A stretch of 64,000 nucleotides of DNA from Mustelus asterias (taxonomy: Eukaryota), in the NCBI RefSeq assembly GCF_964213995.1, contig NC_135826.1, forward strand, positions 33,728,001 to 33,792,000, given 5' to 3'. How positions within the stretch are numbered: the first letter of the stretch is position 1; each line of letters begins with the position of its first letter. Of the stretch, positions 55,501-58,500 are shown piece by piece. The notes under the pieces are model-generated. The model did not search any database. It was not told the DNA's origin and saw nothing but the letters and a program-made list of their open reading frames with translations. Made by a program: the position numbers and the translations under genes.

Positions 55501-58500
55501 GTGCACCCCCAGCGCGGTTCGCCTTTGCCTGGTTTGCATTGCTCCAGACCTGTGATGTGATGGGGGAAACTCCAATGTGGGGGTGCGACACATAGAGGGG
55601 GCACTCCCTGATGGGATGATAATGTATTAAAGTAATATTCTCGATCTTCCTGGGTGAGAACTTTGCTATGTCAATGGCAGGGGTCGGGGATGATTGCGCA
55701 ATGAGATCTCGCTAGCAAGAATTTCACTGTTGACCTTTCGTGGGGTTCTGTGCCCATGTTGCCATTTGCACCCGCGTTTGCCATGTGCGCAAAATCATGG
55801 CATCTATTTCTAACTTTTAGAAAGATAAAATGAATTTTAACTGATTTGTTTTGTAATATTGAAATAAATGAATTTCAGATCTTCAATGTTAAATGACATT
55901 CTTGCTGAAACTGTGGGAGGCATATTTACATTTATCATCCAAATTTCAGGTTATCAAGAATTGGAATCAACAACAACACCAGCTGTATCTTTACCTGCAG
56001 TCAAAGAAGGAGACTTGACCTTTGAACTTAACTTCACAATAATAAACAGAAATTTTACCGAAGCATTAAATGACCCAGCTGCCACAGAATATCAAAGCAT
56101 CAGTGCCAATGTTAGCAGAATGGTAAGGATTATTTTCCAGCCACTGTTTGAAATTCTAACTTGTCGTGCATGAGTTGCTTTCAAATAAATTTTTCTCACT
56201 GGAGTGTTATTTAATTCTTGACGTGTGTTTTTAAAAAAAATTAAAATCTCCTTCATGAATCTCGGTTTCAGCATTTCTATGATGTGGAGATGCCGGCATT
56301 GGGCTGGGGTGGGCACAGTAAGAAGTCTCCTAACACCAGTTTAAAGTCCAACAGGTTTATTTGGAATCACGAGCTTTCAGAGCGCTGATGGTCTCACCTG
56401 ATGAAGGAGCAGCGCTTCGAAAGCTCGTGATTCCAAATAAACCTGTTGGACTTTAACCTGGTGTTGTGAGACTTCTTACTGTCAACATTTCCAGTAAGAT
56501 TTATTTCACATTTCTTAATGCAATCTGTACTTACTTTGGTCTCTGTTTTTCAGCTCACAGGGTTATTCAAGAAGAGTTCTTTAAAGAACAGCTACCGCAT
56601 TGCCAAAGTAACAAGACTGAGGTAAGAGGGTTTATTGTACATGTTAGATACCACTGAAATTAAGCAAAGGAAAAAAGGTTTTGGTTGCCCAGTGTCAATT
56701 GCAATCCTAATCTTTCTATTCCCTCCCCTCCACTCACTCCACCGACCTGATCGTGACCCAGCGTGGTCCACCCCACATGGCGATCATTCCCACAGTTCCT
56801 GGCTACATCTTCCTGCCACGAGTTTCAGGTTCCATCTGCCAGCCAGGCGCTCAATCTGGCCAGCAGTTGGGCAGAGGCTGCATGCTTTATTCAAATGATC
56901 CTGTGCCAATCCTGCGCGGCACTGGAAAGGGGTGTGGATCCAGCTTTGGGGTTTAACACTGTTTTCTGATTCACTACACTCTGTGAACCATGTCATATGG
57001 GGGGGTCATAGATATGAACCGGGGAGGATTTTCAGACTCTTCGCCGGTGGCGGGATTCTCTTGGACCACTGGCAGCACACCCCCGCCCGCTGGTTTCCTG
57101 GAAATCCCATTGACAGCAGCCGACCAGGGAATCCCATCGCCAGCAAATGGCATGCCACCTCCCGCCACCGAGAAACGCATGCTGGGAGGCTGGAGAATCC
57201 CAGCCATTGTCACAAAGTGCGTTCTGAAACATTGATAGTGTATTACGGAATGCTGAACTCCTTCAGGCTACATTGCATAACGATACAGTGAAAATTACTT
57301 TAGCTGTTGCTATAATCATAGAATCATAGAATCCTACAGTGCAGAAGGAGCCCCTTCGGCCCATCAAGCCTGCTCCGATCGCAATCCCACCTAGGCCCTA
57401 TCCCCATAGCCTCATGCATTTACCCTAGCCAGTCCCCCAACACTAAGGGGCAATTTAGCATGGCCAATCTGCACATCTTTGGACTCTGGGAGGAAACTGG
57501 AGAAACCCGGAGGAAACCCATGCAGACACGGGGAGAATGTGCAGACTCCACACAGACAGTCACCCACGGCTGGAATTGAACCCGGGTCCTTGGCGCTGTG
57601 AGGTAGCAGTGCTGACTACTGTGCCACCGTGCCGCCCTATTTGCTGCACTTGTACATTTTAAATAGTCTTGAAAATAAATGATATTTTGATTCAAACTTG
57701 ATGTGTAGGTATTTCTGCTGTATACCAAATCATTGAACCTTAAATATTACATCGCGGCATCCTCTGCGGATTGTCAAGTTACATATCCATTTATGTTATG
57801 CCCATATGTGAAAGGAGAGGGATCAACTTTTCTTTACCTTTGAATGTCCCCATTAGCCGTGGATCAGTCAAATGTACCTGCACATGCTATTTCAATCCTA
57901 ATGTGGCAAATGAACCAGTGACGGCAGAAAAAGTCAGAACAGAATTTGATGCTGGAACGAATGGAACAAACTGGCTGGAAAATTTCTATCAGCTGCACGG
58001 TGACAGTTTGACAGTGGGTAAAGTATCAACTCTAATTCCCTTTATTTATCAATATTTCATTTGAATTAGTAATTAGTATGAGTCAAGTCTCCTTCACTAT
58101 TGTGCAGAAAGTGGACAGAAGTGATCTATATTTTGGGTGGATGGTGAATGGTTAAATAGGGATATTAAAGGAAGATCTGAATCCAAGTAGGATGATGGTG
58201 CAGGAGCTGCTTTGTCTCCCAGCTATACAGAGCCACTGAAGGGTCACAGAGGATGGGTGGAGGGAGATACCCCAATCATTAATGAATTACGCAGATTATA
58301 AAAAAGGCGGTGACTCTGCATTCTCTACAGACATAAGCAAGGACCCCATGCAACCCAGACATACTGGCGGCGATTCTCCCAACCCGCTGCGCTGCTGTAG
58401 TAGCGCAGCGGGCCAGGAGATATCAGCGCGGCCGTGTCACAGGATTCACGCTGGGGTGCCACAACCTCCGCCCAACTCGAAGGGTACGTTTTCTGGCCCC

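What the first reader, a model, noticed from the sequence alone, without database searches (positions are those of the whole stretch)
55950..58017. Terminal SEA module is a different type: fused exon, lost loop cysteine, G-SV candidate autoproteolysis site and CTCTC
Seen: micro-exon D and exon A are one exon here. The exon B Cys present in SEA2-SEA11 is Ala, and the spliced sequence reads [18 protein letters not shown]. Established: self-cleaving SEA domains (MUC1 G-SVVV, MUC3, MUC12, MUC17) cut at G-S in this beta2-beta3 turn. Human MUC16 repeats lack the motif, and its penultimate SEA has DSVLV..WLG..YQL (recalled), similar to WLENFYQL here. Inference: the shark protein may retain an ancestral autocleaving membrane-proximal SEA. 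Its three alternating Cys leave at least one unpaired.
Basis: partly seen in the sequence, partly recalled or inferred. Interest (0 to 1): 0.7.

Follow-up and report, generated by a model that had tools for sequence, protein, structure and literature searches.

The report
Shark mucin with likely self-cutting domain
The last repeat of a shark MUC16-like mucin is a different kind of SEA domain that carries a Gly-Ser exactly where MUC1 cuts itself, a feature shared across sharks, rays and chimaeras and apparently degenerate in human MUC16; the cut itself is predicted, not shown.

Summary
Observation confirmed. The exons splice to a protein identical to NCBI's Mustelus asterias mucin-16-like (594/594 aa). 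The fused D+A exon, the Cys-to-Ala change and the GSV-CTCTC reading are all real. The terminal SEA is its own clade (100/100). Among 23 named chondrichthyan proteins, G-S-[VI] occurs in 22 of 24 terminal-type domains and 0 of 139 repeats, in a hairpin 2-3 residues shorter. The AlphaFold model puts this Gly on MUC1 Gly1097, the self-cleavage P1 (57/57 aligned, rmsd 1.3 A). Corrections: the loop cysteine is kept in 21 of 24 terminal domains, so its loss is lineage-specific, not a mark of the type. The extra cysteines look like buried hydrophobics. Best reading: a MUC1-like, strain-driven self-cleaving juxtamembrane SEA (about 0.6). Against it: two lineages have G-P, P3' is Lys, and the human counterpart (DSVLV) is not cut. 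In most relatives the loop disulfide would staple the two halves; Mustelus lost the staple. New variant of a known kind; moderate interest.

The parts
55950..56122 (+). Exon DA of terminal module: D-like start, Thr/Pro linker, beta1, helices 1-2
   Evidence: AG/GT boundaries, open frame; D-like 5' end; part of P0001
56554..56621 (+). Exon B (68 nt, phase 0 to 2): end of helix 2 and strand beta2
   Evidence: same size and phase as 10 other B exons
56602..56604 (+). Ala codon (A467 in P0001) where repeats and most terminal homologues have the first loop Cys
57857..58017 (+). Exon C: turn, beta3, helix 3, beta4
   Evidence: secondary structure
57861..57869 (+). G-S-V (G475, S476, V477): candidate autoproteolysis site G|S
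   Evidence: codons; conservation; register with MUC1 Gly1097
57873..57887 (+). C-T-C-T-C on beta3; the last Cys (C483) is the canonical loop partner, here without its mate
57972..57995 (+). WLENFYQL before beta4; relatives have [LW]-L-G-x(1-3)-[YF]-Q-L forms
58628..58740 (+). Juxtamembrane stalk and transmembrane exon, directly after the terminal SEA
   Evidence: helix 149-183 in model
61653..61745 (+). Last coding exon: short tail with two Tyr and stop codon; AATAAA at 61747 and 61766
1337..54773 (+). Eleven upstream MUC16-type SEA modules (first one partial); the whole 48-exon model gives 1768 aa without an internal stop

Best explanation
This is the juxtamembrane SEA domain of a shark MUC16-like mucin. 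It belongs to a second, conserved SEA type, distinct from the tandem repeats, and most likely works like the MUC1 SEA. Shown: SEA fold, a tight beta2-beta3 hairpin, G-S in the MUC1 register, conservation across chondrichthyans. Inferred by analogy: folding in the ER strains the G475-S476 bond, the Ser hydroxyl attacks it (N-to-O acyl shift), and the chain splits into a large repeat-bearing subunit and a 119-residue membrane subunit held together by the shared beta-sheet. In 21 of 24 terminal-type domains a beta2-beta3 Cys pair straddles the site and would staple the halves. Mustelus has lost the beta2 Cys, so its heterodimer would be non-covalent and sheddable by force, as in MUC1. The three beta3 Cys are probably buried free thiols. 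The human penultimate DSVLV domain is the probable non-cleaving counterpart.
For: Fold: best match 1IVZ Z 15.3, rmsd 2.1, 118 aligned. Turn: beta2 72-81, beta3 86-93, G83/S84 between them. Register: MUC1 N-fragment 6bsc_A 57/57 aligned, rmsd 1.3, model 23..83 = 1041..1097; GPR110 8hc0_B 57/57, rmsd 1.5, model 23..83 = 150..206 (Z only 5.4 and 5.7, since these are half domains). Gly1097-Ser1098 is the MUC1 site (PMC13643018 passages). Loop: Cys-to-Cys span 17 in 24/24 terminal vs 19-20 in 139/139 repeats; five intact solved SEAs carry 2-6 extra residues here; relaxing strain blocks cleavage (PMC10556640 passages). G 24/24, S 22/24; the chimaera P0017 has GSIVV. Solved MUC16 SEAs match the repeat part of the family profile (E 1e-22 to 5e-24), while MUC1, TMPRSS11, agrin and GPR110 match the terminal part, more weakly (E 1e-8 to 0.13). 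Paired loss of both Cys in two paralogues supports the disulfide assignment.
Against: No cleavage data. Ser is Pro in 2 of 24 (Carcharodon P0005, Pristiophorus P0018), on separate branches. P3' is Lys in 23 of 24, against V/I in GSVVV, GSVIV, GSVIA and GSIVA. The human counterpart was not cut in HEK293T constructs (PMC4456727 passages and Discussion). By whole-domain structure the model is closest to uncleaved MUC16 SEAs. An intact AlphaFold model cannot show strain, pLDDT near the turn is only 74-82, and Cys distances could not be measured. The two extra Cys agree in 20 of 24 domains, so a pairing between them is not excluded.
Confidence: 0.6

Rival explanations
1. G-S is kept for structure only (Gly for a tight turn, Ser or Pro capping beta3). 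The domain is an uncleaved juxtamembrane spacer, like the human penultimate MUC16 SEA, and shedding happens in the stalk.
For: G-P in 2 of 24. Lys at P3' in 23 of 24. A straddling disulfide in 21 of 24 would make a cut of little use for shedding. Human MUC16 is cut within about 12 residues of the membrane, not at DSVLV.
Against: Ser is kept in 22 of 24, including a chimaera. The human site has Asp in place of the P1 Gly, which could itself explain why it is not cut (inference). Exact register and hairpin length of two cleaved SEAs. Species often have several paralogues, so single losses are tolerable.
Confidence: 0.28
2. The loop is cut, but by a trans protease such as a proprotein convertase at R-L-S-R|G, as in human GPR126, whose SEA is furin-cut in the same loop.
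For: Mustelus has R-x-x-R just before G-S. The three domains that lost the beta2 Cys all have Arg just before the Gly. GPR126 precedent (PMC6954182 passages).
Against: R-x-x-R is unique to Mustelus among 24. The first Arg lies in strand beta2. GPR126 uses (R/K)-X-K-R.
Confidence: 0.08
3. The tight G-S turn is a gene-model artefact: the real acceptor lies upstream and lengthens the loop by 13-26 residues.
For: The 57857 acceptor scores below all 47 other acceptors on the gene's own matrix.
Against: The alternatives score -2.0 to -8.8 on the same matrix, end in AAG/GAG and have fewer pyrimidines. NCBI's model uses 57857. The span is 17 in all 24 domains, although these are also predicted models.
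Confidence: 0.04

Closest known systems
Human MUC1 SEA (PDB 6BSC, 6BSB, 2ACM); also MUC3/12/17
   Same: Juxtamembrane SEA; G-S-V in the beta2-beta3 turn; Gly superposes on Gly1097.
   Different: Preceded by many other SEA domains; K-C instead of V-V after G-S-V; Cys-rich beta3; most relatives have a disulfide across the site; cleavage untested.
Human MUC16 penultimate SEA (DSVLV)
   Same: The odd-type SEA at the end of a MUC16 array, clustered with GSVVV-type SEAs by Maeda et al. (seen only through PMC3431878). The human sequence after repeat 19 begins with F-x-I-V-N-x-N-L (by eye), a motif in 23 of 24 shark terminal domains and 0 of 139 repeats.
   Different: Human has Asp for Gly, is not cut there, and has one more repeat-type SEA before the membrane; in 23 of 23 chondrichthyan proteins the G-S/G-P type is the last SEA.
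MUC16 repeat-type SEA (1IVZ, 7SA9, 8GKL, 8VM1)
   Same: Same fold, top structural matches (Z 13.8-15.3); the shark repeats are this type.
   Different: The terminal module is only 26-29% identical to its own repeats, has a shorter hairpin, and forms a separate clade.
GPR110/ADGRF1 SEA (8HC0), enteropeptidase, matriptase
   Same: Self-cleaving G-S-[VI] SEAs; the 8hc0_B fragment ends at the same position. That this end is the cut site is inferred.
   Different: Different protein architectures.

Membership tests
SEA domain (PF01390) | Profile match and ferredoxin-like SEA fold | tested here: met
   4 SEA stretches in P0001; terminal module alone hits solved SEAs; Z 15.3 to 1IVZ
MUC1-type self-cleaving SEA | G-S-[VI] in the beta2-beta3 turn | tested here: met
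MUC1-type self-cleaving SEA | Gly in register with MUC1 Gly1097 | tested here: met
   6bsc_A model 23..83 = 1041..1097, 57/57, rmsd 1.3. The C-fragment test failed for lack of a good model.
MUC1-type self-cleaving SEA | Short, strain-prone hairpin | tested here: inconclusive
   Length is shorter than in repeats and intact solved SEAs; strain itself cannot be computed here
MUC1-type self-cleaving SEA | Full consensus G-S-[VI]-[VI]-[VA] | tested here: not met
   Mustelus reads G-S-V-K-C; only Callorhinchus P0017 (GSIVV) of 24 fits
MUC1-type self-cleaving SEA | Enzyme-independent cleavage with non-covalent association of the halves | not testable with these tools
   needs expression
MUC16 repeat-type SEA (for the terminal module) | C-loop Cys pair, 19 intervening residues in human (PMC10829539) | tested here: not met
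   Ala/Cys with 15 intervening; shark repeats have C/C in 139 of 139 with 17-18 intervening
MUC16 (gene level) | Tandem SEA array with Cys loop, one TM helix, short tail | tested here: met
   NCBI name and Atlas clusters mucin-16-like 0.96, mucin-16 0.91 for homologue P0017
MUC16 (gene level) | Large N-terminal PTS domain and conserved synteny (true orthology) | not testable with these tools
   The 5' end and neighbouring genes lie outside the window; several paralogues per species
Human penultimate (DSVLV) SEA type | Sequence kinship over the whole domain | tested here: inconclusive
   Only the N-terminal motif could be compared, by eye; the rest of the human domain was not available as text

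The most novel reading that the evidence does not exclude
Jawed-vertebrate MUC16 ancestrally ended in a self-cleaving SEA whose halves are stapled by the same C-loop disulfide that straddles the scissile bond (21 of 24 chondrichthyan domains). That gives a cut-but-covalent link that would need reduction as well as force to release. Mustelus and two carpet-shark paralogues dropped the staple and became MUC1-like, two other lineages dropped the nucleophile (Ser to Pro), and human MUC16 killed the site by Gly to Asp. This is a natural allelic series for SEA autoproteolysis.
Probability: 0.3. Interest if true: 0.65.

Novelty: new variant of a known kind. Interest (0 to 1): 0.45.

Why it matters
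Whether MUC16 is cut in its penultimate SEA has been argued since that domain was grouped with MUC1's; the one direct test seen found no cut. An intact G-S in the matching domain of 18 cartilaginous-fish species offers an explanation, a lost ancestral site, and makes it testable: express the shark domain, then swap Gly and Asp between shark and human. The natural variants (C/C, S/S, A/C; G-S against G-P; K against V at P3') test what SEA autoproteolysis needs and whether a disulfide can sit across a self-cleaved bond. The mechanism itself is well known and the gene is already annotated as mucin-16-like, so a specialist would find this interesting rather than startling.

Tried and rejected
Model of exon C alone, meant to test register against the MUC1 C-fragment: mean pLDDT 63.7, no SEA match (best Z 3.0 of 48,161 chains; Foldseek 3 matches, none below E 7), so uninformative. 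Exon C alone found 0 PDB sequences at E 10. Foldseek and its re-alignment did not list MUC1 among the rows shown; only the wide VIA search did. Cluster members of P0001-P0003 could not be looked up, and the Atlas gave nothing for the Mustelus domain itself. All three homologue searches returned only chondrichthyan proteins (3 of 6, 17 of 1540, 23 of 7999 candidates; 94-2000, 355-2000 and 371-2000 aa), so bony fish, amphibians, reptiles and birds stayed unchecked. Rejected: Cys loss as a mark of the module type; an obligatory C-T-C disulfide (4 of 24 domains have only one of the two; not excluded as optional); an acceptor that removes GSV. Weak: Mustelus groups with the two S/S paralogues at only 81/85, so one or two losses of the beta2 Cys cannot be told apart. 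Literature: searches listed no paper on a shark MUC16-like SEA (listings only; one had 128 papers, 30 shown, and their titles and abstracts were mostly clinical). Pei and Grishin 2017 was not held. Maeda 2004, Macao 2006 and Levitin 2005 were seen only through citing papers. Supplement figures held as images could bear on the human comparison. The viral and metagenome contig collections were not searched.

Full report
Gene and observation. The window holds the 3' part of a multi-SEA mucin gene on the + strand. There are 12 C exons, 11 A and 11 B exons, ten 27-nt D micro-exons, two PTS exons, a TM exon and a tail exon. All 48 splice to 1768 codons without an internal stop; two donors are GC. 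From exon 42314 on, the model equals NCBI's mucin-16-like protein of Mustelus asterias (P0001, 594/594). The terminal module has three exons. The first begins with the D-like peptide but runs on without the D donor. Exon B has Ala where 10 of 10 other B exons have Cys. The B-C junction gives [18 protein letters not shown]. The exon C acceptor scores poorly on the gene's own matrix (-2.6; the 47 others score 3.7-15.4). It has 20/26 pyrimidines and a 35-nt AG-free zone, and no in-frame alternative removes GSV.

Relatives. Three searches gave 23 named proteins from 18 shark, ray and chimaera species and nothing else. A profile of the terminal domain found 166 SEA envelopes; 3 under 95 aa were dropped. 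Of the 163, 24 are terminal-type: the last SEA of each of the 23 proteins, plus one internal copy in Callorhinchus P0020; two are identical. The class was set by a profile built on 17 of them, but a tree of 87 of the 163 domains (the last four modules of each protein) gives the same 24 as one side of a branch at 100/100. The span from the beta2 Cys position to the beta3 Cys is 17 in 24/24 terminal domains and 19-20 in 139/139 repeats. G-S-[VI] is in 22/24 against 0/139; the other two have G-P. Both loop Cys are present in 139/139 repeats and 21/24 terminal domains; two carpet-shark paralogues have S/S and Mustelus has A/C. So the Cys loss is lineage-specific. The two extra Cys of CTCTC are both present in 13, both absent in 7 and single in 4 domains, replaced by V, S, T, A or Y. 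They alternate with polar K/T/T on strand beta3, so I read them as buried residues. This is inference; distances could not be measured.

Structure. The AlphaFold2 model of P0001 393-594 (17 sequences, mean pLDDT 74) has beta2 at 72-81 and beta3 at 86-93, with G83-S84 (G475-S476) in the turn. It is a SEA fold, closest to MUC16 SEAs (Z 13.8-15.3). The wide search aligned the cleaved N-fragment of MUC1 (6bsc_A) over 57/57 residues, rmsd 1.3 A, ending at model 83 = residue 1097. GPR110 8hc0_B aligned likewise (57/57, 1.5 A, ending at 206). Gly1097-Ser1098 is the MUC1 autoproteolysis bond (PMC13643018, passages; also PMC9564314 passages). Five intact solved SEAs have 2-6 more residues in this loop. 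In the full-family profile, solved MUC16 SEAs match the repeats, while MUC1, TMPRSS11, agrin and GPR110 match the terminal module, weakly. A model of exon C alone was too poor to test the C-fragment.

Mechanism. Established for MUC1: strain in the folded hairpin plus the Ser hydroxyl cut the chain, the halves stay associated, and force can part them (passages of PMC13643018, PMC10556640 and PMC6954182). I infer the same here, at about 0.6. It would leave a 119-residue membrane subunit starting at S476. The loop Cys pair lies on either side of the scissile bond, so in 21 of 24 relatives a cut would leave a disulfide-stapled dimer, while Mustelus would be non-covalent like MUC1. Against: G-P in two separate lineages; Lys at P3' in 23/24, where known sites have V/I; and no cut at the human DSVLV site (PMC4456727 passages and Discussion; PMC5927449 passages). 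Rivals are a purely structural turn (0.28), a trans protease at Mustelus-specific R-L-S-R (0.08) and a wrong acceptor (0.04).

Comparison with what is known. Maeda et al. grouped the second SEA from the cytosolic side of human MUC16 (DSVLV) with GSVVV-type SEAs (seen through PMC3431878; site also named in PMC10875768 passages). The published human sequence after repeat 19 begins with F-x-I-V-N-x-N-L (PMC10829539 Table 2 passage, by eye). That motif is in 23/24 shark terminal domains and 0/139 repeats, whereas the mouse SEA 1IVZ, by recall the last one, has the repeat form. The shark terminal module is therefore probably the counterpart of the human penultimate SEA, with no repeat-type SEA after it. 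It works like a MUC1 SEA on three tested features and fails the strict five-residue consensus. It is not a MUC16 repeat-type SEA. Gene-level MUC16 orthology is likely but untested for synteny; chicken Muc16 is described only as having at least four SEAs (PMC1552070 passages). A 2026 review lists MUC16 among mucins sharing G-S-[V/I]-V-V, which the human DSVLV does not fit. Searches listed nothing on shark MUC16 SEAs.

Verdict. Real and conserved; a new variant of a known kind. The natural series (stapled or unstapled, G-S, G-P, human D-S) makes an old question about MUC16 cleavage directly testable. Interest 0.45.

Noticed in passing
window 1-4523 vs 6523-11047: Near-identical tandem duplication (98.3% over 4527 nt) covering modules 1-2 with their PTS exons: a recent repeat expansion or an assembly duplicate.
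   Followed up: no
window 1337-42313: NCBI's P0001 starts inside exon A of module 9, yet eight more modules upstream splice in frame without stops, so the database protein is probably truncated.
   Followed up: partly
window 56001: In-frame internal acceptor 51 nt into exon DA, scoring 8.0 against 6.5 for 55950; its use would drop the 17-residue linker before the terminal SEA.
   Followed up: no
window 5431 and 13682: Exon A of modules 2 and 3 ends in a GC donor.
   Followed up: partly
window 3795-3959 and 10315-10479: PTS-rich exons between D and A make the first modules five-exon units, as described for human repeats; later modules have four.
   Followed up: partly
P0020 (Callorhinchus) 835-1193: Two G-S-type SEAs with a repeat-type SEA between them. 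This contains the human order of G/D-S type followed by repeat type; it may be a real arrangement or a fused gene model.
   Followed up: no
P0001-P0023 cytoplasmic tails: A two-Tyr tail pattern (G-[SF]-Y ... G-x-Y-[FY]-x-H) in 22 of 23 proteins; resembles the human MUC16 tail by recall only.
   Followed up: partly
window 53862-54653 (-), 26858-27681 (-), 38615-39246 (-): Intronic ORFs that look like transposon remnants. Pfam matched 1 of 5 (DDE_Tnp_4, E 1e-4, below cutoff). LINE-like and Penelope-like labels for the others are recalled.
   Followed up: partly
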